Shown here in pieces: positions 43,883-60,943 of a DNA stretch of 64,000 nucleotides; the stretch's first letter is position 1, and the number at the start of each line of letters is the position of its first letter. The notes beneath the pieces are model-generated. The model saw nothing but the letters and a program-made list of their open reading frames with translations. It did no database searches and had not been told where the DNA came from. This DNA comes from Sedimenticolaceae bacterium (GTDB lineage: Bacteria > Pseudomonadota > Gammaproteobacteria > Chromatiales > Chromatiaceae). The translations under genes were made by a program, and so were the position numbers. The stretch spans positions 1,630 through 65,629 of the forward strand of contig JBNLDW010000002.1 in the NCBI GenBank assembly GCA_050304615.1, read 5' to 3'.

Positions 43883-45520
43883 ATGGACGATTTATTTGCC
43901 AGCCTGCGCTATCTGATTATCGATGATTTTGAGCAAATGCGTGTCTCCTTCAAGGGGATGCTGACGAGCTTTGGTGCCGAAAACATTGATACCTGCCAAA
44001 CTGGCGAGCTAGGCATGAAAGCACTCTCCACAAATAGTTACGATGTGGTGATATGTGACTACAACCTTGGGGACGGCAAGGATGGACAGCAGGTATTAGA
44101 AGAGGCACGCTACCTGGGCTATCTGGGCCACGCTTGCAGCTTTTTTATGATCACGGCTGAGAGCAATATGCCGATGGTACTCGGCGCATTGGAACAGCAA
44201 CCTGACGAATATATGGTCAAGCCTATAAACACAGACGCACTACAACACCGCCTCGCAAATACACTGAAACGCAAACAACAACTCAAGGCAGTTGACCAGG
44301 CGCTGATGGAAGGAGACAAAACAAGTGCCATTGATCATTGCCAGGAGCAACGGGGCAAAGATCCTAAAAAGAATTTATATTTGGGAAAACTACAGGCCGA
44401 ACTTTGCATCGATCTTGAGCGTTATGATGAGGCGGAAGTGATTTATAAAGAAGTGTTAAAGATTCGCGGCTTTCCATGGGCGACCTTTGCTTTAGCCAAA
44501 ATCGAATTTTTTCGTAAAAACCTAGTGACCGCAGAGCGCCACTTTCGTGATTTAATTAAGGAGAATGAACACTATGTTGAGGCCTATGATTGGCTGGCAA
44601 TGGTATTGAATGAGAGGGGTGAAACAAAAGAGTCCCAAGAATTACTCCAGCAGGCGGTCAAACTCTCTCCGAAAACGGTCAGTAGACAGCGTAAACTTGG
44701 TGAGCTGGCAGTAAAACATGATGATTTCAAAACAGCTGAGCGCGCTTATCAGGCGGCCGTCCGCTGGGGAGAATACTCCTGTTTTTCCAGCGCTGATGAG
44801 TACCGTCAGCTGACTGATATTTATCTTAAAGGCGGCCAAAATCAAAAGGCGCTCAGACTGCTGGCCGATGGACGTAAGCGATTTAACGGGCGTCCCTCAG
44901 AAGAGATTCAAGTACTGAGCAAGCAGGCCCGAGCTAAACTACTTATCAAAAAGAATGATGATATTGATACCTACCTGAAAAAGATTGATCAGTTAGTCAA
45001 TGCGCACAAGGGTGTAATCGCCGCCGAGGATTTATTAGTCGTCGCCGATGACCTATTTAAGGTTTTTCGGCATGATGAGGCAAAGGCATTGTTGGACGTA
45101 CTACTGTGCAATCACCATGATGACGACAAATGGACAGATCGGGTGCGCCGACTTATGAAGCAACACAACAGAGAAGATGAGGCTGACGCCCTGATCAATA
45201 ATAGCCGTGGCAAATTAAAAAAGATTCATGCCGAGTGCGCTTCACTTTTAGAAGGCGACAACATGGAAAAGGCAATAACCATGTTGAATGAAACCGTTGA
45301 TGAATATCCGGCCAACAGGACACTCGCACTCATGTCGGTCAACGCCATGATTGATTACATGCGAGAACACGGGGTGGACAAAGACCTCCACTTCAAGTGT
45401 CGCTACTCGCTAAATCAGTTATTGGTGAAAAACCCACAGGATACTACTGCTGAGGAGCATCTTCGCATGCTATCTCAACTGTCGACCCAACGAAAAAAGG
45501 AGTATTCAGTTGCAGAATAA
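43883..45520 (+). CDS. Response-regulator receiver domain fused to a long TPR-like helical domain
   Basis: REC motifs: IIDDF, VICDYNLGDGKDG (phospho-acceptor Asp context), MITA, KP. Then about 420 aa of helical repeats. Start at 43883, or the GTG at 43847. Confidence 0.8.
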   Translation: MDDLFASLRYLIIDDFEQMRVSFKGMLTSFGAENIDTCQTGELGMKALSTNSYDVVICDYNLGDGKDGQQVLEEARYLGYLGHACSFFMITAESNMPMVLGALEQQPDEYMVKPINTDALQHRLANTLKRKQQLKAVDQALMEGDKTSAIDHCQEQRGKDPKKNLYLGKLQAELCIDLERYDEAEVIYKEVLKIRGFPWATFALAKIEFFRKNLVTAERHFRDLIKENEHYVEAYDWLAMVLNERGETKESQELLQQAVKLSPKTVSRQRKLGELAVKHDDFKTAERAYQAAVRWGEYSCFSSADEYRQLTDIYLKGGQNQKALRLLADGRKRFNGRPSEEIQVLSKQARAKLLIKKNDDIDTYLKKIDQLVNAHKGVIAAEDLLVVADDLFKVFRHDEAKALLDVLLCNHHDDDKWTDRVRRLMKQHNREDEADALINNSRGKLKKIHAECASLLEGDNMEKAITMLNETVDEYPANRTLALMSVNAMIDYMREHGVDKDLHFKCRYSLNQLLVKNPQDTTAEEHLRMLSQLSTQRKKEYSVAE

Positions 45521-46214
45521 TAAACTGAAAGAAGCTAAATTATGCCTGACCCCGGCCTTCGCCATGGTCTCCCATGACATTAAAAACTCCCTCGGTATTT
45601 TACTGAAGCATATCGGCGCGATCTCGGAACAGTGCAATGTTGAGGTGGGCGGCATAAAGCAAGAGTGCGCAAACATGGAGTATGAGGTCAGACGCATTAA
45701 CAGTAATCTGGTAAAGATGCTTACCCTATTTAAGGTCGAAGAAGGTAACTACATGCTAAATGTTGACGCCCATTCCATGAGCGAGTTTCTCGAAGAAAGC
45801 ATGCTGGAACATGGTGATCTTGCCAAGCAAAAAGGGATTGGTTATGAGATTGATTGTAGTGAAGAGCTGTATTGGTATTTTGACCGAAACCTGATGAGCG
45901 GAGTGGTGAGCAACGCCATCAACAACGCCATGCGTTACACCAATGATTGGCTGAGGATTTCGGCACAAACCACGAATGAGGGACTAGCAATTACCGTAGA
46001 GGATAACGGCGATGGCTTTCCCAAATCGATGCTAGAAAAACAGGGAGAGTTTTTTCGTCCAGAATCTGGGTTTCTCAATAACAATACCGGCCTTGGTCTC
46101 TATTTCACGCAGGTGGTGCTAGATCTTCACCAGCACGATGACAAACAGGGAAAGGTGACGCTCTCCAACGGAGGAGTACTGGGGGGCGGTAGTTGCAGTA
46201 TCCTGCTACCGTGA
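45510..46214 (+). CDS. Sensor-less histidine kinase-like protein
   Basis: H-box MVSHDIKNSL, N-box VSNAINNAMRY, VEDNGDGFP, NTGLGLYF. TTG start after aaaggag, overlapping the upstream stop. An alternative ATG is at 45564. Confidence 0.7.
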   Translation: MQNNKLKEAKLCLTPAFAMVSHDIKNSLGILLKHIGAISEQCNVEVGGIKQECANMEYEVRRINSNLVKMLTLFKVEEGNYMLNVDAHSMSEFLEESMLEHGDLAKQKGIGYEIDCSEELYWYFDRNLMSGVVSNAINNAMRYTNDWLRISAQTTNEGLAITVEDNGDGFPKSMLEKQGEFFRPESGFLNNNTGLGLYFTQVVLDLHQHDDKQGKVTLSNGGVLGGGSCSILLP

Positions 46215-46366: not shown

Positions 46367-46876
46367 CTAAACCCCACCCCCCCGGTGTACTATTTCATAA
46401 TAGAGCTTCTCCAACTCTGTTTTGTGCTGGGTCTCTTCGTCAGCCAGAAAGCTGAATAGATCCTTGATCGGGCCAGGACTGGTTGACTCTGCCAGGGCAC
46501 GGTACTGCTCCATGGCGATCTGTTCGCGCCCCAAGGCATACTGCAACACCGCCTGATCATCTACCGTATCTCCCAGTTCAGGTAGCTGAATCGCATCGGA
46601 AAAGTGGCTGTCACTGGCCGGGGTCTCGACCAACCCCTTGAGCTGCTCCTCAAGGTCAGGACGGGCGCGGAGCTCGGTAAACAACGTAAAGTGGCGCTGC
46701 TCCTCCTCCGCTAGCTCTTCCGCTAGGTAACGCATCTGTTTGTTTACCTGCGGTGCCAGAGCAACATAAAAGTCGCGGGCGGTACGCTCAAACTCAATAG
46801 CCACCTCCAAGATCTCGGCCAGAGTTTTCTTGGACCGCAGCTTGTTGTAACCATTGGATGCGCCTTCATCGCTCAT
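46367..46876 (-). CDS. Ferritin-like / rubrerythrin-like di-iron-type four-helix protein
   Basis: Two E...E..H-type segments: AIEFERTARDFY...EEEQRH and ALGREQIAMEQY...DEETQH. Lies 11 nt after the preceding gene. Confidence 0.6.
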   Translation of the reverse strand: MSDEGASNGYNKLRSKKTLAEILEVAIEFERTARDFYVALAPQVNKQMRYLAEELAEEEQRHFTLFTELRARPDLEEQLKGLVETPASDSHFSDAIQLPELGDTVDDQAVLQYALGREQIAMEQYRALAESTSPGPIKDLFSFLADEETQHKTELEKLYYEIVHRGGGV

Positions 46877-46887
46877 GCCGTACCCTC

Positions 46888-48684
46888 CTACTTTCTGTTT
46901 CGGCCACTCAGGTAGCTATCGATACTGGCTGCTGTCCGGTGACCGTCCGCCACCGCATGGACCACATCCGGACCCTTGACGCAATCACCGGCCGCCCATA
47001 ACCATGGCTCTGAGGTGCGCCCGTCACCGTCTACCGTAATACGGCCCCGGTTCCACTCCAGTTTTTCCGTCAGCTCTTCACCCAGCAGACCTACGTCAGA
47101 CATCTGGCCGATGGCCTCGATCACCATGTCACCGGCGTGGAACTGCTCATCGGTTTCATCGTAACTAGGCGCGAACTGGCCCTGCTCATCAAAGATAGAC
47201 TTTACATGCCAGGTTATCAGTCCGGTGACCCTGCCGTCCTCAATGGTTATCTGCTGTGGTCCGCGGGCATCCAGGATCTTAATACCTTCCTCCCCGCACT
47301 CCTTCACCTCTTCCGGATCTGCCAGGAAGTGAGCGAAGTCTTCCAGCGCGGTAACCGTAAGCTTGACCTCGCCGTGCTGCTGTTGCTGCAACCGTGCCAT
47401 ACTGCGGGCGATGTCCATGGCCACGTTACCGCCACCGATCACCACTATTTGGCGAGGTGCCTCGATGGGCTCTCCATCGGTGATGGCGCGCAATAGATCC
47501 ACCGACTTGGGAACATCTTTGTGCTCCGAACCAGGTATCCTGGTGGAACGTCCCAGGTGCAAACCGATAGAGAGTAGCACCGCATCGTACTCTTGGCGCA
47601 ACTGGTCAATGGAGACATCCACACCAACTTGGCTGTTGCAGTGGATCTCCACACCCATGGCGCGGATGACATCTACATCACGGTCGATCATATCGTAAGG
47701 CAGACGGTATTCAGGAATACCGTAACGGGTCATACCGCCGGGGTGTGCCCGCGCCTCATGCACCACCACCTTATGGCCTTTCCGCGCCAGATCGTAGGCG
47801 GTGGTCAGGCCTGCAGGCCCGGCGCCGATGATGGCAATCCTCTTGCCTGTAGCCGGGGCAGGAGCACCAACGATCTCATTGTATTGTTCGTAGGGCACCT
47901 GGTCGGTAATGTGTCGTTTGAGCCAGCGGATGGCGAGCGGATCACCCTCGTGATGCACGGCGCAGACGGTCTCACACTTGTGGGTACATACCCGTCCGCA
48001 CACCTCGGAGAATGGATTGGTCTCGTACAGCAGTTCCAGTCCGTGCTGGTAGTCGCCATCACGCACCGCGGCGATGTAATCGGGGATCGACATATGGGCT
48101 GGGCAGGTGGCAATACAGAGACCACAGGAGACGCAACGGTCCGCCTCAAGCTGGGCCTGCTCCACCGAGTAGCCATGCACGATCTCGTCGAAGGAGCCGA
48201 TACGCACATCAGGCTCCAGTTCACCCATGTGCTCCCTAGTCATTGGAGTTAGGTGATAGCCATCAGGCCGTCTGTAGCCCAGCTTGGCATCGTCCCAAGA
48301 CTTCTTATCGACGCCGGGGATAAAACGGAAGACGTCGGGATCTGCATCCACCCACTTATACTCGTTGGACATGGTGAGCGAGCCGGTCATGCAGATATCC
48401 ACACACAGTGCACACCAGCAGCAACGGCCGTAATCGATACGGGGACGCAGGCCGGAGTCACCCTGCTCCGTTGGAATCCCATCCACCGGCACCATATCAA
48501 TAGCCGCATTCTGACAGATCGCCTCACAGCTGCCGCAACCGATGCACTTATCAACATCGTTCTGGTGGAAGCCACGATAGCGCGCGGCGCCAGGACGCTC
48601 ATTTAGCGGATCGCGGATGGTAACCGGATCGCGAAATAGATTCTTCCACGCGGTAAAGGGTGAGAGGACGTCGCGTATACTCAT
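46888..48684 (-). CDS. Fusion of a NuoI/MbxN-like 2x[4Fe-4S] ferredoxin with a GltD/SudA-like FAD/NAD(P)H oxidoreductase
   Basis: N-terminus has CIGCGSCEAIC and CCWCALCVDIC. Then CVSCGLCIATCP...TNPFSEVCGRVCTHKCETVC, IAIIGAGPAGL (FAD) and VIGGGNVAMD (NAD(P)H). Confidence 0.85.
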   Translation of the reverse strand: MSIRDVLSPFTAWKNLFRDPVTIRDPLNERPGAARYRGFHQNDVDKCIGCGSCEAICQNAAIDMVPVDGIPTEQGDSGLRPRIDYGRCCWCALCVDICMTGSLTMSNEYKWVDADPDVFRFIPGVDKKSWDDAKLGYRRPDGYHLTPMTREHMGELEPDVRIGSFDEIVHGYSVEQAQLEADRCVSCGLCIATCPAHMSIPDYIAAVRDGDYQHGLELLYETNPFSEVCGRVCTHKCETVCAVHHEGDPLAIRWLKRHITDQVPYEQYNEIVGAPAPATGKRIAIIGAGPAGLTTAYDLARKGHKVVVHEARAHPGGMTRYGIPEYRLPYDMIDRDVDVIRAMGVEIHCNSQVGVDVSIDQLRQEYDAVLLSIGLHLGRSTRIPGSEHKDVPKSVDLLRAITDGEPIEAPRQIVVIGGGNVAMDIARSMARLQQQQHGEVKLTVTALEDFAHFLADPEEVKECGEEGIKILDARGPQQITIEDGRVTGLITWHVKSIFDEQGQFAPSYDETDEQFHAGDMVIEAIGQMSDVGLLGEELTEKLEWNRGRITVDGDGRTSEPWLWAAGDCVKGPDVVHAVADGHRTAASIDSYLSGRNRK

Positions 48685-48686
48685 GC

Positions 48687-49862
48687 CTACCTCTCAATCT
48701 CTGGTGGATAGGTGTGCAGTGAAACCATCAGCGCAGCCACATCAGAGATATTTACGTTGACGATCAGCCGCTCCAACAAGGCCATGGCATGGGTGTATGA
48801 TGGTCCACGCACGTTGACTCGACGCGGATAGCCGCTGCCATCGGTAACCAGATAGTAGCCGTATTCGCCGCGTGAGCACTCGCCACGGATATAGGTCTCG
48901 CCACGCGGGATCTTCCAGTGCAACACATTGGGGATCTTGGCCATCAATGGCCCCTCGTTAGGCATCTTGGCCAGTATCTGCCGTATCAGATCTACCGACA
49001 TCAGTAGATCGCGACGGCGCACATCGGCCCGCGCATATACATCCGACTCGGTTGCCACCACCGGCTCAAACTCCAGTTCTGGATAGACCAGATAGGGCTG
49101 ATCCTTGCGCACATCCTTGGCTACGCCGGCGGCACGAGCGACGGGGCCGGTAACACCGTAGGAATCGATCAGTTGCGGATCGACATAACCGAGACCGACA
49201 GTACGCTTCTTAAACACGGCGTTGCAGTACATCACCTCATAGACATCCTTGAGGGTACTCTCGATCTCCTGCAGGGTCTTCTCCATACGTTTTGCAAAGC
49301 CCTGCGGCAGGCCGTCGCGCACCCCGCCAGGAAGAATGAACATATGGTAGATGCGCGCACCGGTCAGCTCTTCGAAACGATCCAGCATCAGATCACGCAC
49401 ATATGTTGTCCACTGACCAATCACACCCTGACCTAAGGCACCAGCCTGACCACCAAGGTACATCAGATAGCTGTTGACCCGTCCCATCTCCAGGATGAGC
49501 GTGCGTATCCAGTCGGCGCGCTCGGGCGACTTGATCCCCGCCAGTTCCTCCACCGCCGCAGCATAGCAGTACTCATTGAAATCCGGCTCCGGCACACAGA
49601 CGCGACAGACTATGGGGAAACACTGGATGAAGGTACGCCGCTCCATCAATTTTTCGAAGCCGCGGTGCAGGTAGCCAACGTGGGTCTTACCTGCGACCAC
49701 TTCATCGCCACAGACGGTAAGCTCCAGTGACATGTTACCGGTGATGCCAGGGTGTTGTGGTCCCTGCCACAGTTTTAGGTATTTGCCCGACGTCAAATCT
49801 ATATCAAGGCTGCCATCAGCCTTTTTCTGCGGGTATTGATTACGTTCCGGTTGATACGTCAT
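48687..49862 (-). CDS. NuoD / [NiFe]-hydrogenase large-subunit-like protein (MbxL-like) lacking C-terminal Ni-Fe ligands
   Basis: GPQHPG..G...L.L...G..V......VGYLHRGFEKL.E. Contains CRVC where hydrogenases have CGxC, and a C-terminus ...SLHTYPPEIER with no Cys. Start trimmed to 49862. Confidence 0.85.
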   Translation of the reverse strand: MTYQPERNQYPQKKADGSLDIDLTSGKYLKLWQGPQHPGITGNMSLELTVCGDEVVAGKTHVGYLHRGFEKLMERRTFIQCFPIVCRVCVPEPDFNEYCYAAAVEELAGIKSPERADWIRTLILEMGRVNSYLMYLGGQAGALGQGVIGQWTTYVRDLMLDRFEELTGARIYHMFILPGGVRDGLPQGFAKRMEKTLQEIESTLKDVYEVMYCNAVFKKRTVGLGYVDPQLIDSYGVTGPVARAAGVAKDVRKDQPYLVYPELEFEPVVATESDVYARADVRRRDLLMSVDLIRQILAKMPNEGPLMAKIPNVLHWKIPRGETYIRGECSRGEYGYYLVTDGSGYPRRVNVRGPSYTHAMALLERLIVNVNISDVAALMVSLHTYPPEIER

Positions 49863-49863
49863 G

Positions 49864-50397
49864 TTATGCACCATCCGGATAGAGTTGTTCTTGCATGTAC
49901 TCCGCCGGATCTTTGCTCTCCCGGCCAGGCCGGTGACCATATGTCTCCTCGGAGTACTTCAAGGTATCGAAGTCACGGCGGTAGGGTGGAATGTCATTCC
50001 AGCCTTCAAGGATGAACTCTTCATCCACCCCGGGGCTATCGGGAAAGTCGATACCAAACATCTCGCGCAATTCGCGTTGATAGGTGGCAGCGGTTGGCCA
50101 GATATCGTGGATACTCTCCATAGTGGCGCTGTCACGAGACAGCATCACCCGCAGGCCAATATCCCGGCCACCCTCCCTGTTGGAGAGCAGATAGGTCAAC
50201 TGAAACTGACCATCTTCAATCCAGTCCACGGCGGTCAATAGAACTAGGTGGCTGTACCCCTCTTGGTCACGCAGATGCAGCAGTAACGAACGCAGCTGTG
50301 CCTGCGCTACGGTAATAAAGGCAAGATCGTCCCGCTGCTCGGTTAGTTCACCGAGTTGAAATCGATCCTTTAGCTGTCTATAGAGTGTTTGCATCAT
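49864..50397 (-). CDS. NuoC (30 kDa)-like subunit (MbxK-like)
   Basis: ...W..A..YQRELREMFGI.F...P... pattern. 177 aa. Confidence 0.75.
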   Translation of the reverse strand: MMQTLYRQLKDRFQLGELTEQRDDLAFITVAQAQLRSLLLHLRDQEGYSHLVLLTAVDWIEDGQFQLTYLLSNREGGRDIGLRVMLSRDSATMESIHDIWPTAATYQRELREMFGIDFPDSPGVDEEFILEGWNDIPPYRRDFDTLKYSEETYGHRPGRESKDPAEYMQEQLYPDGA

Positions 50398-50416
50398 TTA
50401 TATTTTCTATCCGACA

Positions 50417-51058
50417 TCACCAGTTATAATCCGGCATATCCCAATCGTGAATTACCTTTTTTTGGTTCGCCTTGTACCAGTCGAATTCCTCGGCATATTT
50501 ATTGGCACCTTCGCCCTTGCCTGCCCGGATGATCTTCTTCAAATCTTCAAACCCAGCCAGCAACGCCTCGGGGCGCGGCATACAACCGGCGATGTATAGA
50601 TCTACCGGCAGGTAGTCGTCCAGCCGCTTGATGGTGTTGTAGGCGTCCCAGTACATCCCGCCGTTGATGGTGCAAGAGCCAAGGCCAATTACATATTTCG
50701 GGCCCTGCATCTGTTCATAAGAGCGGATCGCCCGCTTCAGCGTCTTCACCGAGAGATAGCCGGAGATGATAAACAGGTTCGCCTGACGCGGGGTTGGGCG
50801 CCACTGCACACCAAAGCGATAGGCATCAAAGCGCGGCGTCATCAATGGGCGCATCTCAATAGCGCCACAGCCGGTACCAAATCCGAGGATCCAGAGAGAT
50901 TCGGAGCGGGCCCAGTTGAACAGCTGCTCAACGATCTTCTGATAGGCGGCAGGCTGCACCGTAGGCGGTGCCTCGCAGTAATAGTCCCGTAGCGGTTCGA
51001 CCTCAAACTCGATCCCGTCGGGCCCTTTTACGATACGTTTTTCAAGCTCTTCTTTCAT
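50417..51058 (-). CDS. NuoB (20 kDa, PSST)-like subunit (MbxJ-like)
   Basis: SLWILGFGTGCGAIEM, PRQANLFIISG, LGSCTINGG, IAGCMPRPE. Start trimmed to 51058. Confidence 0.85.
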   Translation of the reverse strand: MKEELEKRIVKGPDGIEFEVEPLRDYYCEAPPTVQPAAYQKIVEQLFNWARSESLWILGFGTGCGAIEMRPLMTPRFDAYRFGVQWRPTPRQANLFIISGYLSVKTLKRAIRSYEQMQGPKYVIGLGSCTINGGMYWDAYNTIKRLDDYLPVDLYIAGCMPRPEALLAGFEDLKKIIRAGKGEGANKYAEEFDWYKANQKKVIHDWDMPDYNW

Positions 51059-51062
51059 AACC

Positions 51063-51968
51063 TTACACCAGCACGATAGAGACAATGCCCAACGGCACTG
51101 CCCAGATCAAAAACCAACGGATCGACTGCTCCACCCTAAAGCGTGGAAATGCCACACCGACAAACAGCGAGACCATGTAGATCAGAAATACCTTGAGGAA
51201 AAATAGCGGCCAACTCGTCGCCCCACCAAAAAACAGATTCATATAGATCACAATCTTAGCGATGGGGAAGATCACCCGGTTGGTCTGCATCAGCGCCAGA
51301 TAGGAGGAGTGATACTCGGTGGGCGGTCCAATAGGAATCTCCTGGGGCGCCAATACCACATCGAAGGGCGGACGCATCATAGAGCCGAGGAACGACAGCA
51401 TCGCTGCGGCCACCGCAAAGGGGTTGGTAAACAGTGTCCAGTTGAGCATACCGCCCTGCTGCGCAGCCACGATCTCGGTGATGGAGAGGGTCTGGTACTG
51501 CAGCGCCACCGAAAAGATCGCGAGGGCAAAGGGCAGTTCGGCTGCAGTCGTCTGTGATAGACCACGACTTACACCTATGGCCGCATAGGGATGGCCACTC
51601 TCACCCGCCCCCAGCGCCATACCCAATGCACCAAAAAATACGAAATAGAGGGCCAGGATCAGGTCGCCGGCAAAGGAGAGGTTAGAGAACATCTCAGAGC
51701 CGTAGATAGTAGGCACAAACAGCAGCAGACCGACACCACCGGTCAACCGAAAGACCGGGCCGAGGTAGAACATCACACCGTGGGTAATAGAGCTGCGCAG
51801 TGCATAATTCTTTATCAGATCGATGTAGTTTTGATAGATCGGTATACCATGTCGGCGCCCTACCCTCGCCCCAATCTTTTGCATCAGCGCAGCCAGCAAC
51901 AGCCCGAAGTTGATCACAATGAACAGGGTCAGAAGCGAATAGGGAATCTTGATCCACTCAAATTGCAT
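51063..51968 (-). CDS. NuoH / MbxM / HycD-like membrane subunit
   Basis: Eight hydrophobic segments, PFDVV.AP.EI..GP.TEY.S, PRFRVEQ. Start trimmed to 51968. Confidence 0.8.
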   Translation of the reverse strand: MQFEWIKIPYSLLTLFIVINFGLLLAALMQKIGARVGRRHGIPIYQNYIDLIKNYALRSSITHGVMFYLGPVFRLTGGVGLLLFVPTIYGSEMFSNLSFAGDLILALYFVFFGALGMALGAGESGHPYAAIGVSRGLSQTTAAELPFALAIFSVALQYQTLSITEIVAAQQGGMLNWTLFTNPFAVAAAMLSFLGSMMRPPFDVVLAPQEIPIGPPTEYHSSYLALMQTNRVIFPIAKIVIYMNLFFGGATSWPLFFLKVFLIYMVSLFVGVAFPRFRVEQSIRWFLIWAVPLGIVSIVLV

Positions 51969-51970
51969 CA

Positions 51971-54900
51971 CTAGAACCCCACCTTTAGTAGATACACCAC
52001 AACCACAAAGGCCAGCAGGTGAACGGCATAGGTCTGGCCATTGCCACAATAAAGCCGCCGCAACACATCGGAGAGACTATGCAGAAAATCGGTCTGCGCC
52101 TCCCAGAAACGGGTGACCAAAGGCTGAGTGAGAAAACCCAGCGCCTTGCGATAGGGGGCGAAGAAGTTCCAGGCAAAGTGGGTGGTCTCCGGACGGAATG
52201 GCCGCTCGGCAGCATAGACAATATTGAACTGTTTCACCCGCTGCGCCTTGCGGTTAACAAACAGCAACCAGGCCAGCAAGGTAGCGAAGATCACACCGAC
52301 CACCAGCATGATAGAGACGGGACTCCAGTAGCCGAAGTCGCTAGTGATGGTAAGCCCCTCCCAATTGAGCGCACCTTCCGGAAAAAAGCGGCTTAGATAG
52401 CCGTCCACATGGCGCAGCACCAGACCAGGAACCACTGCCACCACCATAAGTATGGCGACGTAGATCATCTGCGGTAGCACCAGCCAGAAAGGCGCCTCTT
52501 TCACCCGCCGGTGTTCATCCTTCATCTGCCCGAGAAACACGGTATGAATCAGCCGGAATAGATAGAGGAAGGCGATAGGCCCGGAGAGAAAAATAACAAT
52601 CATCGGCAGCCGGTACTCGGCAGTCATGATGGCGTTGTAGAAGATCCAACGCCCACCAAAACCAGACAGTGGCGGTACACCGGAAACTGCAATGATACCG
52701 ATCAGGACAGCAATAAAAGAGAGCGGCATCAGGGTGATCAAACCACCCATGCGGTACATGTCACGAGTACCGGTACGCTTGGCTATACCGCCTACAGAGA
52801 GAAACAGCATCGACTTGTATACATAGTGGTTGATCACGAACATCAACGCCATCAACCAGCCGAGATGATTCATCATGGCCAACCCGAACAGGGCGTACCC
52901 CATCTGACCAATAGAGGAGTAGGCAAGCAACCGCTTGGCATCCTCTTGAAAGATCGCCAGCAGATTACCAATCAGCGCCGACAGGGCACCGACCCAGAGC
53001 ATCAGGTGGGTGAGCTCTACCCCATAGAACTCCTGCTTGCGCATATTCATCAGCAATACGAACAGCCCAAACAAGCCCGCCTTGAGCAGGATACCGGATA
53101 CCATGGGTGAGACATCCGTCTCCGCCTCGCTGTGGGCACCAGGCAGCCAGATATGGAAGCCGATGGCGGCAGTCTTGGTCATAAAACCAATGGCAAGCAG
53201 TAGGAAGACCCAACCCGCCAGCGGCTGCGCCACCTGGCTAAGCGCCTGCAGAGGAAAATCCATAACGCCCTGGCTGGCCAGGCCAAATCCCGCCAGAATC
53301 AACATGGCCCCACCGAGAGAGAAAACACTGTAAGAGAGCGCGTGCGGTTCGGAGTGTTTGCCCCGCAAGATCAGAAAATAGGAGCCTACTGTCAATAACT
53401 CCCAGGCGGCAAAGAAGGTGAAGGAGTCAACCGCGGTAACAAGCATGGCTAGACCTGCGTACATAAGCATGGCCGAAGGATAGAAACCGACCCTGCGACC
53501 ATGCGCGGAGTAGCTTGCCAGCAGAATCAGCGCGCCCCCGAGGAGGATAACGGCACCAAATATAACCTGCAATGGATCGTATCCGGGGTAGCAAACAACA
53601 AACCATGCGACCATCCCGACAATAGCTATGGTGTTCTTAACCCAAGCCGGCAACCACTCTATCAGCAGAAAGCCCAAGGCAAACAACAGCGGCAACGCAT
53701 GTAGCAGATTACCGTGGCTGGAGAGACCGCCCCACAGATAGGCCGCTACCCAGCCTGCCAGTACAGCCACATAGACCACATCCACCTTCTGCGGGAGACG
53801 CGCCGCCGGCTCTCCTGTTTGATCCCGCTTGATGATATAGCCAAACCAACGGAACAGATAACCGGCCTCGAGCAGCGTACCAAACAGGATAAGTCCAAGC
53901 AGCGCGATGCGGTCATTGGACGCAAGGATATGGACCAGATCCCACTTGGCATAGAAGCCGGGAAATGGGGGCAGCCCAATCAACATGGCGATAAAGGTGA
54001 CAAAGGCGAAGATGAGCAACGGACGGCCGCGCAAGACGCTCCATGCGGTCAACTCACGCTCAAACACCAACCCAGAGAGCCAGAACAGCCCAGCCTTGGA
54101 TATGGCATGGGCCACCAGAATACCGCCGGCGATAAACAGATAACTATCACCGAGAATTTCGCGCTGACCCAATATCGTCAACACCAAACCTATCTGTGCA
54201 ATTGAAGAGTAGCCTAGCAGACGCCGGTCATTGGTTTGTGACAGGGCAAACAGGTTGGCGCCAACGAAGCTGACAATACCGATACCAGTCGCCACCGGTA
54301 GCCACTGTGCACCACCGATTAGCAACAGTTTATCCACCGCAAACAGGGCCGCAGATGCCGAGGCTGCTGAGAGTATGGCGGAAAGTGCTGGATGGGCCGA
54401 CTCGTAGATATCCAGTACCCAGCCATTCGCTGGAAATGGTTTGATCTCGGCGATAATGGCGATGAACATCAGGAAAAAGACTAGAGCCCCATCCTTAAAC
54501 AGATCCTGGTGCGCAGCGGCCATGCCATCTATATTCAGGGTGCCGGTCGCGTGATAGGAGAAGATGATGCCAATCAACAGCAGCATCGCAATCACCTGCG
54601 ACGCAATCATATATTTGAAACCGGCACTCAGTGCCTGTCTGGCCAAGGAGAGCAAGACTAGGCCACCGGTAGCGATCACCGTCAACTCAAAGAATACAAA
54701 CAGGTTGAACATATCGCGGGTAAGAACAATGCCGCACAGGGCCATAGCAAAGACAAGCAGCACCGCCATGGCGCGCCGCCCCAGCTTTAACATAGTCTCC
54801 TTCAGGTGAAACGCCGAGAGCAGTGCAGTCATACTAATTAGCAGGATCAGTACCGCTTCGGCTAATCCCATACGCAGATTGATCGCAAAAGGCGGTGCGG

Positions 54901-55096
54901 TACCAGCAGTAAAGATATCAACGGTGGTGGCGCCGCCCCAAGCCAGAGATGAGACACTGCTTGCCGCCATCCAGCTCATCGAGGTGAGGGCCGCCAACAT
55001 CACCCAATAGGAGATGGCCCGCCACTCGTCCCGCAACAGACCAAGCAGAAATGCCGCGCCTAATCCGACCGCTATGAAGTAAATGGCACTCACCAT
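51971..55096 (-). CDS. Fused double antiporter-like subunit (two NuoL/M/N-MrpD-type modules; MbxH+H'-like)
   Basis: 1041 aa with two Proton_antipo_M-like cores. The first contains ...EIKPFPANGWVLDIYESAHPALSAILSA. The second contains ...KTAAIGFHIWLPGAHSEAETDVSPMVSGILLKAG. Confidence 0.8.
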   Translation of the reverse strand: MVSAIYFIAVGLGAAFLLGLLRDEWRAISYWVMLAALTSMSWMAASSVSSLAWGGATTVDIFTAGTAPPFAINLRMGLAEAVLILLISMTALLSAFHLKETMLKLGRRAMAVLLVFAMALCGIVLTRDMFNLFVFFELTVIATGGLVLLSLARQALSAGFKYMIASQVIAMLLLIGIIFSYHATGTLNIDGMAAAHQDLFKDGALVFFLMFIAIIAEIKPFPANGWVLDIYESAHPALSAILSAASASAALFAVDKLLLIGGAQWLPVATGIGIVSFVGANLFALSQTNDRRLLGYSSIAQIGLVLTILGQREILGDSYLFIAGGILVAHAISKAGLFWLSGLVFERELTAWSVLRGRPLLIFAFVTFIAMLIGLPPFPGFYAKWDLVHILASNDRIALLGLILFGTLLEAGYLFRWFGYIIKRDQTGEPAARLPQKVDVVYVAVLAGWVAAYLWGGLSSHGNLLHALPLLFALGFLLIEWLPAWVKNTIAIVGMVAWFVVCYPGYDPLQVIFGAVILLGGALILLASYSAHGRRVGFYPSAMLMYAGLAMLVTAVDSFTFFAAWELLTVGSYFLILRGKHSEPHALSYSVFSLGGAMLILAGFGLASQGVMDFPLQALSQVAQPLAGWVFLLLAIGFMTKTAAIGFHIWLPGAHSEAETDVSPMVSGILLKAGLFGLFVLLMNMRKQEFYGVELTHLMLWVGALSALIGNLLAIFQEDAKRLLAYSSIGQMGYALFGLAMMNHLGWLMALMFVINHYVYKSMLFLSVGGIAKRTGTRDMYRMGGLITLMPLSFIAVLIGIIAVSGVPPLSGFGGRWIFYNAIMTAEYRLPMIVIFLSGPIAFLYLFRLIHTVFLGQMKDEHRRVKEAPFWLVLPQMIYVAILMVVAVVPGLVLRHVDGYLSRFFPEGALNWEGLTITSDFGYWSPVSIMLVVGVIFATLLAWLLFVNRKAQRVKQFNIVYAAERPFRPETTHFAWNFFAPYRKALGFLTQPLVTRFWEAQTDFLHSLSDVLRRLYCGNGQTYAVHLLAFVVVVYLLKVGF

Positions 55097-55449
55097 TTCA
55101 GCTCCGTATACTTCGCAATATCTAGGCTGCCCTTGGTCTCATATAGCTTGTAGACAAAGGCAAGCATCAGCGCCGTCGTACCTACGCCGATAACGATGGC
55201 GGTAAGCACCAGCGCCTGCGGGACCGGATCGATGATGCGGGTTACCGCCTCAGATACCGGGACCGCCGCATCCAGGATTGGTGCGGTACGGCCACGCATG
55301 TACCCCACGGAGACCAGAACCAGGTTGACCCCAGCGTTGGCCACAGTAAAAGAGACAATCATGCGTAAAATATTACTATTGGAGAGCGCACCGTATATGC
55401 CGATAAGGATCAGGATAAAGCCGGTTGCCATAGAAATATGCGCAATCAT
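55090..55449 (-). CDS. MrpC/MnhC (NuoK-like) subunit
   Basis: 119 aa, 3 TM segments, DPVPQALVLTAIVIG. Confidence 0.8.
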   Translation of the reverse strand: MIAHISMATGFILILIGIYGALSNSNILRMIVSFTVANAGVNLVLVSVGYMRGRTAPILDAAVPVSEAVTRIIDPVPQALVLTAIVIGVGTTALMLAFVYKLYETKGSLDIAKYTELKW

Positions 55450-56144
55450 GATCCCTCCGCTTCTGAAAGATCGACTAACATGGAGCTAAATTCAGCGCCC
55501 ACCTTAAGACCGATAAAGGAGTAGATTACGGGCATGGCACCGGCGGAAAACAGTTCGCCTAGAGTGCCGATAGGTAGAATTCTGTTGTCCAGAAAACCGG
55601 ATGCGAAAAAGATACCGAGCACACCGATAGTGACAAAGACCAATCCAGAAATAGACTCGAGCACATAGATCAGGCGGTGACTGAAATGTCGTAGCGGATT
55701 AGTCAATAATAGCAATAGAGTCGCCGACGCCAGGATGGCACCACCCTGAAAACCACCGCCCGGGGTTAGGTGACCATTGACGAAGATGTAGACACCGAGC
55801 AACATAATCAACGGCACCAGAATGCGCGTGCCTGTGGTCAGTAGTTCGCCCACCGGCGTGAGCTGGCGTTTTACCGCCCCGCGCCTGCGACCTCTGGCCA
55901 GAACCAAGCCGACGATGGCGGCAGAGAGAAACAGTACCGTTACCTCTCCCAGGGTATCAAGGCCGCGGTAAGTGACGATGATGGCGGTAACAATATTGGC
56001 CGCTCCCAGGTCGGTTGCAGTGTGCTCGGCATAGTAGCGGCCTGTGAGGTTCAGCTCCGCATCTGGCTGGTAGCCAGTTAGTAAATGCCAGAAGGCGGCG
56101 CCAAGCACCAACACCAGCAGCAGGAGTATAAAACGCTTAATCAA
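55446..56144 (-). CDS. MrpB/MnhB-domain subunit
   Basis: GAANIVTAIIVTYRGLDTLGEVTV. Probable TTG start at 56144 overlapping the upstream stop. The ORF-track ATG is at 56198. Confidence 0.75.
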   Translation of the reverse strand: MIKRFILLLLVLVLGAAFWHLLTGYQPDAELNLTGRYYAEHTATDLGAANIVTAIIVTYRGLDTLGEVTVLFLSAAIVGLVLARGRRRGAVKRQLTPVGELLTTGTRILVPLIMLLGVYIFVNGHLTPGGGFQGGAILASATLLLLLTNPLRHFSHRLIYVLESISGLVFVTIGVLGIFFASGFLDNRILPIGTLGELFSAGAMPVIYSFIGLKVGAEFSSMLVDLSEAEGS

Positions 56145-56415
56145 GCTCGTTTTCCTCGTTATTATGTTCGTGCATGCCGCGCACGCGACCGAGTACAAAG
56201 AAGAATAGGAATGTGGTCAAACCGCTGCCGATGGCGGCCTCGGTCATCGCCACGTCTGGCGCAGCCAGGATAACGAACAACACCGAGGCGAAGAGAGTTA
56301 CCAGTCCGCCTGCCAGTATGGCCACCGATAGGCCCTTGGTGCGAATAGCCACCAGGGCCACGACTATCGTAGCCAGCGCCAACAACATGGTCATGACGGT
56401 GATCATACTGCTCAT
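56137..56415 (-). CDS. DUF4040 (MbhD / MrpA C-terminal-like) subunit
   Basis: 92 aa, 3 TM segments, APDVAMTEAAIGSGL hallmark. Confidence 0.7.
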   Translation of the reverse strand: MSSMITVMTMLLALATIVVALVAIRTKGLSVAILAGGLVTLFASVLFVILAAPDVAMTEAAIGSGLTTFLFFFVLGRVRGMHEHNNEENELD

Positions 56416-56759
56416 TGCGGTGGTTCTCCGCTGTCCTCTGCCAAATGGTCCACTATGGTCAGATCACACTTCTTGGTGCCAATGCGATGTGCAGCACGCG
56501 CCAATACGTGTGACGACAGCGGGTTAGTAGACAGAACAAATAGCGCAATCAACAGCAGCTTAGGCCACCACTCAAGTTGCAGGCAAGCGAGACCTATCAA
56601 GGTCAACAAGGTGCCGAGGGTGGTGGTCTTGGTGGCGGCCTGGATGCGGTTGAATACATCTGGCATGCGCACCAGCCCCACACCACCTAAAAACAGAAAC
56701 ACGGCTCCGAATAACAACAATAGTCCACCAAATAAATTAAGAGGGGTATCGGCAAACAT
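56412..56759 (-). CDS. MrpG/MnhG subunit
   Basis: GLVRMPDVFNRIQAATKTTTLG. Confidence 0.8.
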   Translation of the reverse strand: MFADTPLNLFGGLLLLFGAVFLFLGGVGLVRMPDVFNRIQAATKTTTLGTLLTLIGLACLQLEWWPKLLLIALFVLSTNPLSSHVLARAAHRIGTKKCDLTIVDHLAEDSGEPPQ

Positions 56760-57019
56760 TACAGCCCCCGCTCCAGATAGCGCGCCACGGCGATGACGCC
56801 AAGAAAGGAGAGAAATGCATAGACCAACGCCACATCAAGATAGATATTACGACCCTCGACCAAGGCCACCAGGATAATGCCAATGACTGAGAGGATGGTA
56901 AGCACGTCGAATGCCACCACCCGGTCCGGCGCCGTTGGACCGGTAAAAAAGCGCCACAGGGCAAGCAGGAAGGAAACTCCAGCCAGCGTAGCCGACAGGA
57001 AAACCAGCGCATCAACCAT
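56759..57019 (-). CDS. MrpF/MnhF subunit
   Basis: 86 aa, ...RFFTGPTAPDRVVAFD. Confidence 0.75.
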   Translation of the reverse strand: MVDALVFLSATLAGVSFLLALWRFFTGPTAPDRVVAFDVLTILSVIGIILVALVEGRNIYLDVALVYAFLSFLGVIAVARYLERGL

Positions 57020-57509
57020 ACATCACCTCAAGATAGCGCTCGAAACCGGCAACGATGGTAGCCGTTGCAACCTCAACATCATCTGATTCAACAGTTACCC
57101 AGTGGACGTAGAGCCATTCATCAATTAACTCAATGGTCAGCGTGCCCGGTGTCATGGTGATCGCATTGGCCAACAACTCCCGCCCCACTGGACTCTTAAG
57201 CTTGGTGCGTACCTTGACGATACCAGGATTCACCGGCAAAGATGGCGATATTATAATCGCGGCCATCCGCAGGTTTGATACAATCAATTCTTTGAAGAAA
57301 TAGAAAACGAAGATCACCGCGGCGCCTATGGCGCGAGGCGTGGCATTGAAGCCAGAGAGGACACTAATGCCGCGTTTATAAACCAGCGCAATCAGAAAAG
57401 AGGTGATAGCACCCACTATTAGTACATCAGGGGCCAAAGAAGCATTTAGCAGCAGCCAAAACAGGAGCAGGACTACGAACAACCGAATGAAATGTCGCGT
57501 TTTCTGCAT
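57012..57509 (-). CDS. MrpE/MnhE subunit
   Basis: 165 aa. N-terminal TM pair, ...WLLLN.S......VG, MTPGTL. Confidence 0.7.
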   Translation of the reverse strand: MQKTRHFIRLFVVLLLFWLLLNASLAPDVLIVGAITSFLIALVYKRGISVLSGFNATPRAIGAAVIFVFYFFKELIVSNLRMAAIIISPSLPVNPGIVKVRTKLKSPVGRELLANAITMTPGTLTIELIDEWLYVHWVTVESDDVEVATATIVAGFERYLEVMYG

Positions 57510-60931: not shown

Positions 60932-60943
60932 TACTACTCCTCA

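What the first reader, a model, noticed from the sequence alone, without database searches (positions are those of the whole stretch)
48687..49862. Large subunit retains only half of the [NiFe] ligand set
At the L1 position, where hydrogenases have R.CG.C and NuoD has none, the protein reads IVCRVCVPEP, so the N-terminal CxxC is kept. At the C-terminus, hydrogenases have DPCxxCxxR and NuoD has D.V.GE.DR. Here the sequence ends SLHTYPPEIER with no cysteine. The protein is therefore neither a standard hydrogenase nor a standard quinone-site NuoD. It looks like an intermediate state whose active-site chemistry is unknown.
Basis: partly seen in the sequence, partly recalled or inferred. Interest (0 to 1): 0.65.

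Follow-up and report, generated by a model that had tools for sequence, protein, structure and literature searches.

The report
Bacterial MBS/Mbx-type complex large subunit
The gene encodes the hydrogenase-derived large subunit of a known type of membrane-bound, Mrp-linked "Mbx/MBS-like" respiratory complex of proteobacteria; it keeps only one of the four old nickel-iron cysteines, because the reported CxxC pair is three residues out of register with the hydrogenase motif.

Summary
The sequence is as described: ...IVCRVCVPEP... and a cysteine-free C-terminus ...SLHTYPPEIER.

Alignment with E. coli HycE, about 25 true group-4 hydrogenases, P. furiosus MbsL and Thermus Nqo4 fixes the register. 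R87-V-C89-V-P-E92 corresponds to the hydrogenase motif R-x-C-G-x-C. C89 is therefore the first [NiFe] ligand position. The second is Glu92, the third Tyr385 and the fourth Glu388. C86 lies before the conserved Arg and is not a ligand position. The protein keeps one of four ligand cysteines, not two.

The protein is an MbsL/MbxL homologue: E 2.6e-93 to PDB 6u8y_L, and the model superposes on that chain at 1.4 Å. It sits in a 13-gene operon:
- Mrp-like genes and a fused MbsH–MbsH' subunit;
- NuoH/B/C/D-like genes;
- an MbsN::NfnB/GltD flavoprotein fusion;
- a rubrerythrin-like gene.

The operon is syntenic across the 80 related α/β/γ-proteobacterial species genomes fetched. This type of operon, with its vestigial cysteines, was described by Degli Esposti (2015).

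The small subunit has only three cysteines for the proximal [4Fe-4S] cluster, as in MBS. The most likely function is an NADH-linked, ion-translocating sulfane-sulfur reductase, possibly reversible. That function is inferred, not shown.

In sister lineages each of C86, C89 and C385 has been lost somewhere.

The parts
48687..49862 (-). Large subunit, MbsL/MbxL-like (NuoD/[NiFe]-hydrogenase large-subunit fold), 391 aa
   Evidence: Pfam Complex1_49kDa, 4.2e-61. Best PDB sequence match is 6u8y_L (MbsL), E 2.6e-93 over the full length; Nqo4 gives 4.8e-61 and MbhL 8.9e-38. AF2 model has pLDDT 94.4. Foldseek match to 6u8y_L: rmsd 1.4 Å, TM 0.91/0.95, 42% identity.
49587..49607 (-). L1-equivalent segment C86-R87-V88-C89-V90-P91-E92. 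C89 is the only retained [NiFe]-ligand position. C86 is a Cys outside the motif, specific to the bacterial flavoprotein-linked lineages. E92 replaces the second ligand Cys.
   Evidence: Alignment with HycE (DRVCGIC), MbsL (LRICVPE), Nqo4 (PRMDYLH) and about 25 'CCCC' hydrogenases. Codon positions checked.
48690..48722 (-). C-terminal L2-equivalent SLHTYPPEIER. Y385 replaces the third ligand Cys (MbsL C385) and E388 the fourth. The protein ends at the Arg where hydrogenases are cleaved.
50417..51085 (-). Small subunit, MbsJ/NuoB-like. It has only three Cys for the proximal [4Fe-4S] cluster: C73 in GFGTGCGAIEM, C138 and C168 (numbering of the 222-aa ORF; public gene calls start at M10, giving 213 aa).
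   Evidence: Best PDB match is 6u8y_J, E 1e-64. MbsJ reads FC25TGC28GGIEM where the query reads FGTGCGAIEM. The motif is the same in 76/76 readable orthologous loci and in nearly all sister-clade loci.
49864..50397 (-). NuoC/MbsK-like subunit
   Evidence: Pfam Complex1_30kDa, 7.9e-25. Syntenic in the related loci.
51063..52049 (-). NuoH/MbsM-like membrane anchor (public gene calls give 301 aa)
   Evidence: Pfam NADHdh, 4.1e-44. 74-90% identical in orthologous loci. Gene call.
51971..55096 (-). 1041-aa fusion of two antiporter-like subunits: MbsH-like N-terminal half and MbsH'-like C-terminal half
   Evidence: PDB matches: residues 6-259 to 6u8y_H (1e-38) and residues 514-1034 to 6u8y_X (7.4e-55). 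Pfam Proton_antipo_M in two stretches.
55090..57509 (-). Mrp-type module: MnhE (57012-57509), MnhF (56759-57019), MnhG (56412-56759), MbhD-like (56137-56415), MnhB/MbhE-like (55446-56198), MnhC/NuoK-like (55090-55449)
   Evidence: Pfam and NCBIfam hits. Same gene order in the related loci.
46888..48684 (-). 598-aa fusion. The N-terminal part is an MbsN/NuoI-like 2x[4Fe-4S] domain. It is followed by an NfnB/GltD-like domain with 2x[4Fe-4S], FAD and a nicotinamide-nucleotide site. The NADPH 2'-phosphate motif YRR is replaced by A446-L-E-D449.
   Evidence: Pfam Fer4_7, Fer4_20 and Pyr_redox_2. PDB: residues 7-110 match 6u8y_N (7.5e-22); residues 150-595 match StnC, NfnB and GltD. Alignments show YRR in all five PDB relatives against ALED here. 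(A/S/C)LE is conserved in orthologues and most sister lineages. NCBIfam PRK13984: 905 bits, just under the 946 cut-off.
46367..46876 (-). Rubrerythrin-like di-iron protein (169 aa, no rubredoxin domain), last gene of the operon
   Evidence: Pfam Rubrerythrin, 1.6e-12. Found directly downstream of the flavoprotein gene in about 60 of the 80 loci; many of the rest are contigs that end before that position. Absent from the sister-clade loci, apart from one weak match.

Best explanation
The ORF encodes the MbsL/MbxL-type large subunit of a proteobacterial 'Mrp-Mbx' (MBS-like) membrane complex. It is a former group-4 [NiFe]-hydrogenase subunit that no longer binds Ni-Fe.

Shown by the alignments:
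- Only C89 occupies a [NiFe]-ligand position (the first).
- The other three positions are Glu92, Tyr385 and Glu388.
- C86 is a cysteine outside the motif.

Inferred mechanism:
1. NADH is oxidised at the FAD of the NfnB/GltD-like domain fused to the MbsN-like subunit. NADH rather than NADPH is predicted because the YRR 2'-phosphate motif is replaced by ALED.
2. Electrons pass through four [4Fe-4S] clusters of that fusion protein to the proximal [4Fe-4S] cluster of the small subunit.
3. That cluster has only three cysteine ligands, as in P. furiosus MBS, which leaves one iron open. It is taken to be the catalytic site for reduction of a hydrophobic sulfane-sulfur substrate (polysulfide or stored S0).
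4. Turnover is coupled, through the NuoH-like anchor, the fused MbsH-MbsH' antiporter-like subunits and the Mrp module, to H+/Na+ translocation. The reaction may run in reverse in lithoautotrophs.

On this reading the C86/C89 pair lines the vestigial Ni-Fe pocket and is not the catalytic centre.
For: Homology and structure. The large, small, anchor-adjacent, antiporter and ferredoxin-like subunits all match chains of the MBS structure 6u8y best. The AF2 model superposes on MbsL at 1.4 Å.

Register of the cysteines. It agrees with PMC4758237, which places the 'first and third' ligands at Thermus positions 86 and 403. These map to query positions 89 and 385.

Three-Cys small subunit. The motif is the same in 76/76 readable orthologues and in almost all sister lineages. 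This is the feature to which PMC7684303 assigns catalysis. The same paper shows that the C85A/C385A MbsL mutant stays active.

Pocket cysteines are individually dispensable across lineages that share the same operon. The 86/89/385 patterns found are I/V-C-C, C-C-C, C-C-Y and C-T/S-Y.

Operon. It is syntenic across the 80 species genomes fetched. Among those with a genus or family name, sulfur- and iron-oxidising, phototrophic or magnetotactic proteobacteria are prominent.

Literature. The T. maritima mbx operon, an MBS homologue, is induced 4.4-fold by S0 (PMC9431562). The Riftia symbiont 'Mrp-Mbx complex' is co-expressed with sulfur-globule and rTCA genes (PMC11636981).

NADH prediction..
Against: - No biochemical data exist for any proteobacterial member. 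The substrate and the direction of the reaction are inferred from a 42%-identical archaeal enzyme that uses ferredoxin, not NAD(P)H.
- NADH to polysulfide releases little energy under standard conditions (E0' about -320 against about -260 mV, from general knowledge). It is not obvious that this can drive two antiporter-like modules plus an Mrp module.
- Many hosts are sulfur or iron oxidisers rather than sulfur reducers.
- C86 and C89 are unchanged in about 200 orthologues, so a role for the pair in this clade cannot be excluded.
- MbsL C385, conserved in archaea, is absent here.
- No coordinates of the model could be read, so the pocket geometry was not measured.
Confidence: 0.55

Rival explanations
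1. The remodelled pocket is functional. C86-x-x-C89, perhaps with H383, Y385, E92 and E388, forms a redox-active dithiol/persulfide relay or a new mononuclear metal site. This site, not the proximal cluster, is where the substrate is transformed.
For: - C86 and C89 are unchanged in 120 of 120 database homologues and in the 80 species-genome loci.
- Loss of C385 always coincides with presence of C86 and with His383 (the H-T-Y motif).
- Lineages without C86 always keep C385. Nearly every lineage therefore retains a cysteine pair at this site.
Against: - 47% of all positions are invariant in the same set, so invariance is weak evidence.
- Three close sister loci with the same operon (L129, L130, L141; 67-69% identity) have Thr or Ser at position 89.
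- In MBS the corresponding C85A/C385A mutant keeps activity (PMC7684303).
- The geometry could not be measured.
Confidence: 0.12
2. The complex is a variant complex I. It would be an NADH:quinone oxidoreductase that uses a one-subunit GltD-type NADH module in place of NuoEFG, with a non-canonical quinone site.
For: - The flavoprotein has an NADH-type motif.
- The hosts are quinone-containing proteobacteria.
- NADH to quinone would pay for two antiporter-like pumps plus an Mrp module.
- The MBS chamber is as wide as the quinone chamber (PMC7684303).
- NCBIfam scores the protein just above the cut-off of its NuoD model PRK06075.
Against: - All three quinone-headgroup residues are absent: H38->T, Y87->V, D139->A.
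- The small subunit has a single Cys where complex I has the tandem CC ligands of cluster N2.
- Every subunit is closer to MBS than to complex I.
Confidence: 0.15
3. In vivo the enzyme runs in reverse. The ion-motive force drives electrons from sulfide, polysulfide or another donor up to NAD+, supplying reductant for CO2 fixation in sulfur- and iron-oxidising autotrophs.
For: - Carriers include Chromatiaceae, Sedimenticolaceae and chemosynthetic symbionts, Thiothrix, Gallionellaceae and Magnetococcales.
- The complex is co-expressed with the rTCA cycle in Endoriftia, where its direction is explicitly listed as unknown (PMC11636981).
- The redox span between NADH and polysulfide is small, which makes reversal easy.
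Against: - No direct evidence.
- The Thermotoga homologue is induced under sulfur-reducing conditions (PMC9431562).
- These organisms are expected to possess other routes for reverse electron flow (general knowledge; not examined here).
Confidence: 0.15

Closest known systems
[quoted passage not shown]
   Same: - 42% identity over the full length; the model superposes on 6u8y_L at 1.4 Å.
- R-[IV]-C-V-P-E-P-D motif, with the first [NiFe] Cys retained and Glu at the second position.
- Ends at ...PP[DE]I[DE]R.
- The partner small subunit has three Cys ligands for the proximal cluster.
- Mrp module plus MbsH and MbsH'.
   Different: - The third-ligand Cys (C385) is Tyr here.
- There is an extra Cys (C86) three residues before C89.
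- The small subunit lacks even the non-ligating C25.
- MbsH and MbsH' are fused.
- MbsN is fused to an NfnB/GltD-type flavoprotein, so the donor or acceptor is a nicotinamide nucleotide rather than ferredoxin.
- A rubrerythrin-like gene is appended.
- The hosts are bacterial: none of the named carriers is a hyperthermophile, and the complex is thought of as mesophilic (temperature range not tested).
[quoted passage not shown] Endoriftia (PMC11636981)
   Same: - pha/mrp genes plus nuoH/B/C/D-like genes.
- A gltD-related flavoprotein in the NuoI position.
- A terminal rubrerythrin.
- Vestigial Cys in the NuoD homologue.
The window operon fits this description point by point.
   Different: The following details were worked out here and were not found in the passages of the papers read:
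- the exact register (one of four ligand positions retained);
- the C86 / Tyr385 / His383 combination;
- the NADH-type ALED motif;
- the lineage-by-lineage turnover of the three cysteines.
Group 4 [NiFe] hydrogenase large subunits (HycE, MbhL, EchE)
   Same: Same fold. The conserved Arg of L1, the first L1 Cys and the C-terminal Arg are shared.
   Different: Three of the four metal ligands are missing. There is no C-terminal extension for protease maturation. The Gly and His of RxCGxCxxxH are absent.
Complex I NuoD/Nqo4
   Same: Same fold and the same position in the module. About 35% identity.
   Different: Lacks H38, Y87 and D139. Retains a Cys where Nqo4 has D86. The partner NuoB lacks the tandem cysteines. 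There is no NuoEFG module.

Membership tests
Group 4 [NiFe] hydrogenase large subunit | Four metal-ligand cysteines: L1 R-x-C-G-x-C-x-x-x-H and L2 D-P-C-x-x-C-x-x-[HR] | tested here: not met
   Only the first position is Cys (C89). The others are E92, Y385 and E388. The Gly and His of L1 and the Asp-Pro of L2 are absent.
Group 4 [NiFe] hydrogenase large subunit | C-terminal extension removed by a maturation protease, as in HycE (not universal in group 4); hyp genes | tested here: not met
   The protein ends at R391, the residue aligned with the HycE cleavage-site Arg. hyp genes were not searched for systematically; none is among the 40 window ORFs scanned.
Complex I NuoD/Nqo4 (quinone site) | Quinone-headgroup residues H38, Y87 and D139 (Thermus numbering) | tested here: not met
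   T41, V90 and A142 at the aligned positions.
Complex I NuoD/Nqo4 (quinone site) | Partner NuoB with tandem Cys-Cys ligands of cluster N2; NuoEFG NADH module | tested here: not met
   A single Cys (GTGCGA) where NdhK and complex I have CC. The operon carries a GltD/NfnB-type flavoprotein instead of NuoEFG.
MBS/MBX complex (MbsL) | Closest sequence and structure relative is MbsL; R-I-C-V-P-E-P-D motif | tested here: met
   E 2.6e-93 and 42% identity to 6u8y_L. Foldseek rmsd 1.4 Å. The query reads R-V-C-V-P-E-P-D.
MBS/MBX complex (MbsL) | Two vestigial cysteines, C85 and C385 | tested here: not met
   The C85 equivalent (C89) is present. The C385 equivalent is Tyr385. The mutant data in PMC7684303 indicate that these residues are not needed for activity.
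MBS/MBX complex (MbsL) | Proximal [4Fe-4S] cluster with only three Cys ligands in the small subunit | tested here: met
   By sequence only: C73, C138 and C168, with Gly at the MbsJ C25 position. The actual coordination cannot be tested with these tools.
MBS/MBX complex (MbsL) | Mrp-type module plus two antiporter-like subunits, MbsH and MbsH' | tested here: met
   MnhE, F, G, B and C plus MbhD-like genes, and a 1041-aa protein matching 6u8y_H and 6u8y_X.
MBS/MBX complex (MbsL) | Stand-alone MbsN that accepts electrons from ferredoxin | tested here: not met
   The MbsN-like domain is the N-terminus of a 598-aa NfnB/GltD-type flavoprotein.
MBS/MBX complex (MbsL) | Polysulfide/sulfane reductase activity coupled to ion translocation | not testable with these tools
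   Needs enzyme assays. The only indirect support is from the literature (PMC9431562, PMC11636981).
Bacterial mbx-like operon (Degli Esposti 2015) | mrp/pha genes plus nuoH/B/C/D-like genes, a gltD-like flavoprotein in the NuoI position, a terminal rubrerythrin, and vestigial Cys in NuoD | tested here: met
   All elements are present in this order at 46367-57509 (-). The same order is seen in the related species genomes. The description is in PMC4758237.
Ehr complexes (Marreiros et al. 2013) | Group-4-hydrogenase-related complexes that lack the Ni-Fe ligands; membership is defined by phylogeny | not tested
   The defining paper was not available in the library. PMC6349859 treats Mbx as one kind of Ehr.

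The most novel reading that the evidence does not exclude
In the proteobacterial clade the dead Ni-Fe pocket may have been rebuilt into a new thiol- or metal-based site. The candidate residues are C86, C89, H383 and Y385, with E92 and E388. Such a site could handle sulfane sulfur, or sense redox state, beside an open-iron [4Fe-4S] cluster. The whole complex would then be an NADH-linked, reversible sulfur:NAD(H) energy converter that supplies or consumes reductant in sulfur- and iron-oxidising autotrophs and chemosynthetic symbionts.
Probability: 0.12. Interest if true: 0.65.

Novelty: new member of a known kind. Interest (0 to 1): 0.3.

Why it matters
The finding as stated (half of the [NiFe] ligand set retained) is a mis-registration of a known vestigial feature. 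It does not reveal new active-site chemistry.

The gene does belong to a widespread complex: 508 matching stretches in the species-representative genome collection. The complex is very strongly conserved and has not been characterised biochemically in any proteobacterium. It occurs in sulfur- and iron-oxidising, phototrophic, magnetotactic and symbiotic proteobacteria.

Knowing its substrate and direction would fill a gap in models of energy and reductant supply in these organisms, including tubeworm and clam symbionts. The sequence-level predictions made here give concrete targets for mutagenesis and assays:
- a three-Cys proximal cluster;
- an NADH-type flavoprotein;
- pocket cysteines that are individually dispensable across lineages.

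Tried and rejected
1. Reading C86xxC89 as the L1 CxxC. Rejected by the ungapped alignment from C89 to the PERA motif against HycE and about 25 true hydrogenases.
2. A functional [NiFe] hydrogenase. Rejected: one of four ligands, no C-terminal extension.
3. A canonical complex I quinone site. Rejected: H38, Y87 and D139 are all replaced, and NuoB has no tandem Cys.
4. Using invariance of C86/C89 as proof of function. Set aside, because 47% of positions are invariant in the same 120 sequences.
5. Measuring Cys-Cys and Cys-cluster distances in the AF2 model. Not possible: the tool returns no coordinates and nothing is written to /data. No heterodimer model could be built.
6. A four-Cys site formed by C81, C86, C89 and C99. 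Considered, but C81 is Val or Asn in about 9% of close homologues, C99 is Leu in a few, and neither is conserved in sister clades.
7. Literature search for a biochemical study of a proteobacterial or GltD-linked MBX. None found. The hits gave only genomic or transcriptomic mentions.
8. Identifying the source organism. The exact protein occurs on short contigs of an SRA run and on contigs of a GenBank assembly, GCA_050294065.1, whose organism name was not shown. The nearest named relatives are Sedimenticolaceae and unclassified Gammaproteobacteria MAGs. The organism was not resolved further.
Full report
**Observation**

The ORF at window 48687-49862 (minus strand) encodes a 391-aa protein. Its ATG overlaps the stop codon of the upstream NuoC-like gene (ATGA). 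Public assemblies call the same 391-aa product.
- ...FPIVC86-R87-V-C89-VPEPD...;
- a C-terminus ...SLH383-T-Y385-PPE388-IER391 without cysteine.

**Register of the cysteines**

I aligned the protein with the following sequences (MAFFT, 253 sequences):
- E. coli HycE (taken from NC_000913);
- P. furiosus MbsL and Thermus Nqo4 (sequences read from the HMMER alignments);
- 120 close and about 130 distant homologues, including about 25 genuine group-4 hydrogenases with the full four-Cys signature.

From C89 to the downstream PERA motif the query aligns to HycE C241...PERA without a gap. Shared residues along this stretch include Tyr, Val-Glu, Gly-Ile and Pro-Glu-Arg-Ala. R87 is the Arg of the hydrogenase motif R-x-C-G-x-C. 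The correspondence is:

| Query | [NiFe] ligand position | HycE | MbsL | Nqo4 |
|---|---|---|---|---|
| C89 | first | C241 | C85 | D86 |
| E92 | second | C244 | Glu | – |
| Y385 | third | C531 | C385 | V403 |
| E388 | fourth | C534 | Asp | – |

C86 sits just before the Arg, where HycE has Asp, MbsL Leu and Nqo4 Pro. The protein therefore keeps one of four ligand positions. The 'CxxC' is shifted by three residues relative to the hydrogenase CxxC. This matches PMC4758237, which states that the vestigial ligands are the first and third, at Thermus positions 86 and 403.

**What the protein is**

- The best solved relative by sequence is MbsL of the membrane-bound sulfane sulfur reductase (6u8y_L, E 2.6e-93, full length). 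It is well ahead of Nqo4 (4.8e-61), MbhL (8.9e-38) and HycE (6.7e-31).
- An AlphaFold2 model built on a 148-sequence alignment has mean pLDDT 94.4. It superposes on 6u8y_L with rmsd 1.4 Å and TM 0.91/0.95.
- The three quinone-headgroup residues of Nqo4 are replaced: H38->T41, Y87->V90, D139->A142.

It is therefore neither a hydrogenase nor a canonical NuoD. It is an MbsL/MbxL homologue.

**The operon**

On the minus strand from 57509 to 46367 lie thirteen genes:
1. MnhE-, MnhF- and MnhG-like genes.
2. MbhD-like, MnhB/MbhE-like and MnhC/NuoK-like genes.
3. A 1041-aa protein. Its N-terminal half matches MbsH (6u8y_H) and its C-terminal half matches MbsH' (6u8y_X).
4. NuoH-, NuoB-, NuoC- and NuoD-like genes.
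5. A 598-aa fusion protein.
6. A 169-aa rubrerythrin-like protein.

Residues 7-110 of the fusion match MbsN (6u8y_N). Residues 150-595 match the NADPH-binding FAD and 2x[4Fe-4S] subunits StnC, NfnB and GltD. The cysteine motifs for four [4Fe-4S] clusters can be read directly in the sequence.

All five solved relatives carry Y-R-R at the end of the second Rossmann beta-strand, the NADPH 2'-phosphate site. The window protein has A446-L-E-D449 there. (A/S/C)-L-E is conserved in the orthologues and in most sister lineages. A few more distant lineages keep YRR. From the usual rule for Rossmann folds, an acidic residue at this position predicts NADH. This is an inference.

**The small subunit**

It matches MbsJ best (6u8y_J, 1e-64). 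MbsJ reads F-C25-T-G-C28-G-G-I-E-M, and complex I/NDH has tandem Cys-Cys. The window protein reads F-G-T-G-C73-G-A-I-E-M. With C138 and C168, only three cysteines are available for the proximal [4Fe-4S] cluster.

This motif is the same in 76 of 76 readable orthologous loci and in nearly all sister-clade loci. In MBS a three-Cys proximal cluster with one open iron is the proposed site of polysulfide reduction. The MbsL C85A/C385A and MbsJ C25A mutants remain active (PMC7684303). So the feature that defines MBS chemistry is present here and is the most conserved one. The pocket cysteines are the feature shown to be dispensable in the archetype.

**Distribution and conservation**

A scan of one genome per species found 508 matching stretches. 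The best 80 loci are 82-90% identical. They come from:
- Sedimenticolaceae, including clam symbionts;
- Chromatiaceae (Halochromatium, Lamprobacter, Thiohalocapsa) and Thiothrix;
- Gallionellaceae and Rhodocyclaceae/Azonexaceae;
- Magnetovibrio, Magnetococcales, Rhodospirillaceae and Rhodobium.

All 13 genes occur in the same order wherever the contig is long enough. The large, small and NuoH-like subunits (74-91% identity) are clearly more conserved than the flavoprotein (61-83%) or the rubrerythrin (50-77%).

C86, C89, E92 and E388 are unchanged in all 120 close homologues, and together with Y385 in the 80 genome loci. Y385 is Ser in one of the 120. But 182 of 391 positions are invariant in that set, so this invariance says little.

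**Sister lineages**

I took the 62%-identical representative P0121 from the exhaustive search. With it I fetched 80 metagenomic loci that are 43-69% identical to the window protein. Wherever the DNA downstream of the large-subunit gene is present, it encodes the MbsN::flavoprotein fusion. Rubrerythrin is essentially absent. The residues at 86/89/385 are:

| Pattern at 86/89/385 | Where found |
|---|---|
| I/V-C-C | the majority; MbsL-like |
| C-C-C | L145-L147, L152, L154, L155 |
| C-C-Y | the window clade, L148, L149 |
| C-T/S-Y | L129, L130, L141 (67-69% identity; sister to the window clade in the NJ tree) |

On a rough NJ tree rooted with HycE, the C-C-C lineages branch first within the bacterial flavoprotein-linked group. 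This suggests a three-Cys ancestor from which C86, C385 or C89 was later lost in different branches. Tyr385 always comes with His383 (H-T-Y) and with C86. Lineages without C86 keep C385. Most lineages thus keep a cysteine pair, but the C-T/S-Y group does not. This argues against an indispensable CxxC dithiol, though it does not exclude a role in the window's own clade.

**Comparison with what is known**

[quoted passage not shown] There NuoI is replaced by a gltD-related flavoprotein, the operon often ends with rubrerythrin, and the NuoD homologue shows vestigial Ni-Fe cysteines.
- PMC11636981 reports a 'putative Mrp-Mbx complex' in the Riftia symbiont. It is co-expressed with the rTCA cycle, hydrogenases, V-type ATPase and sulfur-globule genes. 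Its function and direction are unknown.
- In T. maritima the 13-subunit mbx operon is induced 4.4-fold by S0 (PMC9431562).
- No biochemical study of a flavoprotein-linked bacterial member was found.

**Most likely mechanism**

The steps below are inferred unless marked as shown.
1. NADH is oxidised at the FAD.
2. Electrons pass through four [4Fe-4S] clusters of the fusion protein to the three-Cys proximal cluster.
3. A hydrophobic sulfane-sulfur substrate is reduced at the open iron of that cluster.
4. Turnover is coupled to ion translocation by the NuoH-like anchor, the fused MbsH/MbsH' subunits and the Mrp module. It may be reversible.

Shown here:
- the homology of every subunit to MBS;
- the cysteine register;
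- the three-Cys motif;
- the fusion architecture;
- the synteny;
- the cysteine turnover across lineages.

Not shown:
- the substrate;
- the nucleotide specificity;
- the direction of the reaction;
- the real coordination of the cluster;
- the geometry of C86 and C89.

**Rival explanations**

- A rebuilt thiol or metal site in the old Ni-Fe pocket (about 0.12).
- A non-canonical NADH:quinone oxidoreductase (about 0.15).
- Physiological operation in reverse, to make NADH in lithoautotrophs (about 0.15). This concerns direction rather than chemistry and is compatible with the main explanation.

**Verdict**

The sequence observation is real, but the 'half ligand set' reading is a three-residue register error. 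The protein is a new member of an already described kind, the bacterial Mrp-Mbx/MBS-like complex with a GltD/NfnB-type flavoprotein. Interest is modest (0.3). The complex is widespread and uncharacterised. The analysis yields testable predictions, but nothing here departs from the known MBS framework.

Noticed in passing
window 46888-48684 (-), residues 446-449 (47338-47349): The flavoprotein fused to the MbsN-like domain lacks the Y-R-R NADPH 2'-phosphate motif found in all five solved relatives (StnC, NfnB, NfnA). It has A-L-E-D instead. (A/S/C)-L-E is conserved in orthologues and most sister lineages, while a few distant lineages keep YRR. This predicts NADH rather than NADPH specificity.
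   Followed up: partly
window 50417-51085 (-), Cys73/138/168: The small subunit has only three cysteines for the proximal [4Fe-4S] cluster, with Gly where MbsJ has the non-ligating C25. The motif is the same in 76/76 readable orthologues. This is arguably more informative about the chemistry than the large-subunit cysteines.
   Followed up: yes
window 51971-55096 (-): A single 1041-aa ORF fuses homologues of the two antiporter-like subunits MbsH (N-terminal half) and MbsH' (C-terminal half, with the lateral-helix region). These are separate chains in 6u8y. The related loci align to 97-100% of this ORF, which suggests the fusion is conserved.
   Followed up: partly
window 46367-46876 (-): A rubrerythrin-like di-iron protein without a rubredoxin domain ends the operon. 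It is present in most proteobacterial orthologous loci but is essentially absent from the sister-clade metagenomic loci (one weak match, L145). It may protect an oxygen-labile open-iron cluster in microaerophiles.
   Followed up: partly
L129, L130, L141 (large-subunit match at about 6342, 10034 and 10007): Loci 67-69% identical to the window large subunit, which group as sister to the window clade in the NJ tree and have the same operon, carry Thr or Ser at position 89. They therefore have no cysteine at any [NiFe]-ligand position, yet keep C86, H383 and Y385.
   Followed up: partly
L082-L128 subset (for example L082, L084, L101): Some I/V86 lineages carry a Cys one residue earlier (P-T-C-[IV]-R-M-C). 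A cysteine just upstream of the conserved Arg has therefore arisen or moved more than once.
   Followed up: no
window 48687-49862 (-), C81 and C99: Two further cysteines flank the pair (C81-x4-C86-x2-C89-x9-C99). They are nearly, but not fully, conserved in the clade: C81 is Val or Asn in about 9%, and C99 is Leu in about 2%. Both are absent from MbsL. Their spatial relation could not be measured.
   Followed up: partly
window 51063-52049 and 50417-51085 (-): The longest ORFs of the NuoH-like and NuoB-like genes overlap their upstream neighbours by 79 and 23 bases. Public gene calls use later starts (301 aa and 213 aa), so the true starts are probably internal.
   Followed up: partly
window 41395-46214 (+): A FIST-domain sensor protein, two histidine-kinase-type ATPase proteins and a response-regulator/TPR protein converge on the 3' end of the operon. 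A regulatory link to the operon was not examined.
   Followed up: no
window 10414-18601 (-): A type I secretion cluster: a 1325-aa RTX/haemolysin-type calcium-binding protein, a HlyD-family membrane fusion protein, and a C39-peptidase ABC exporter.
   Followed up: no
window 57624-63645 (-): The housekeeping cluster murJ-ribF-ileS-lspA lies directly upstream of the first operon gene (MnhE-like), so the operon is chromosomal. A di-haem cytochrome c peroxidase/MauG-like gene (33308-34660), a Crp-family regulator (34678-35427) and a SulP transporter (38338-39894) lie further downstream.
   Followed up: no
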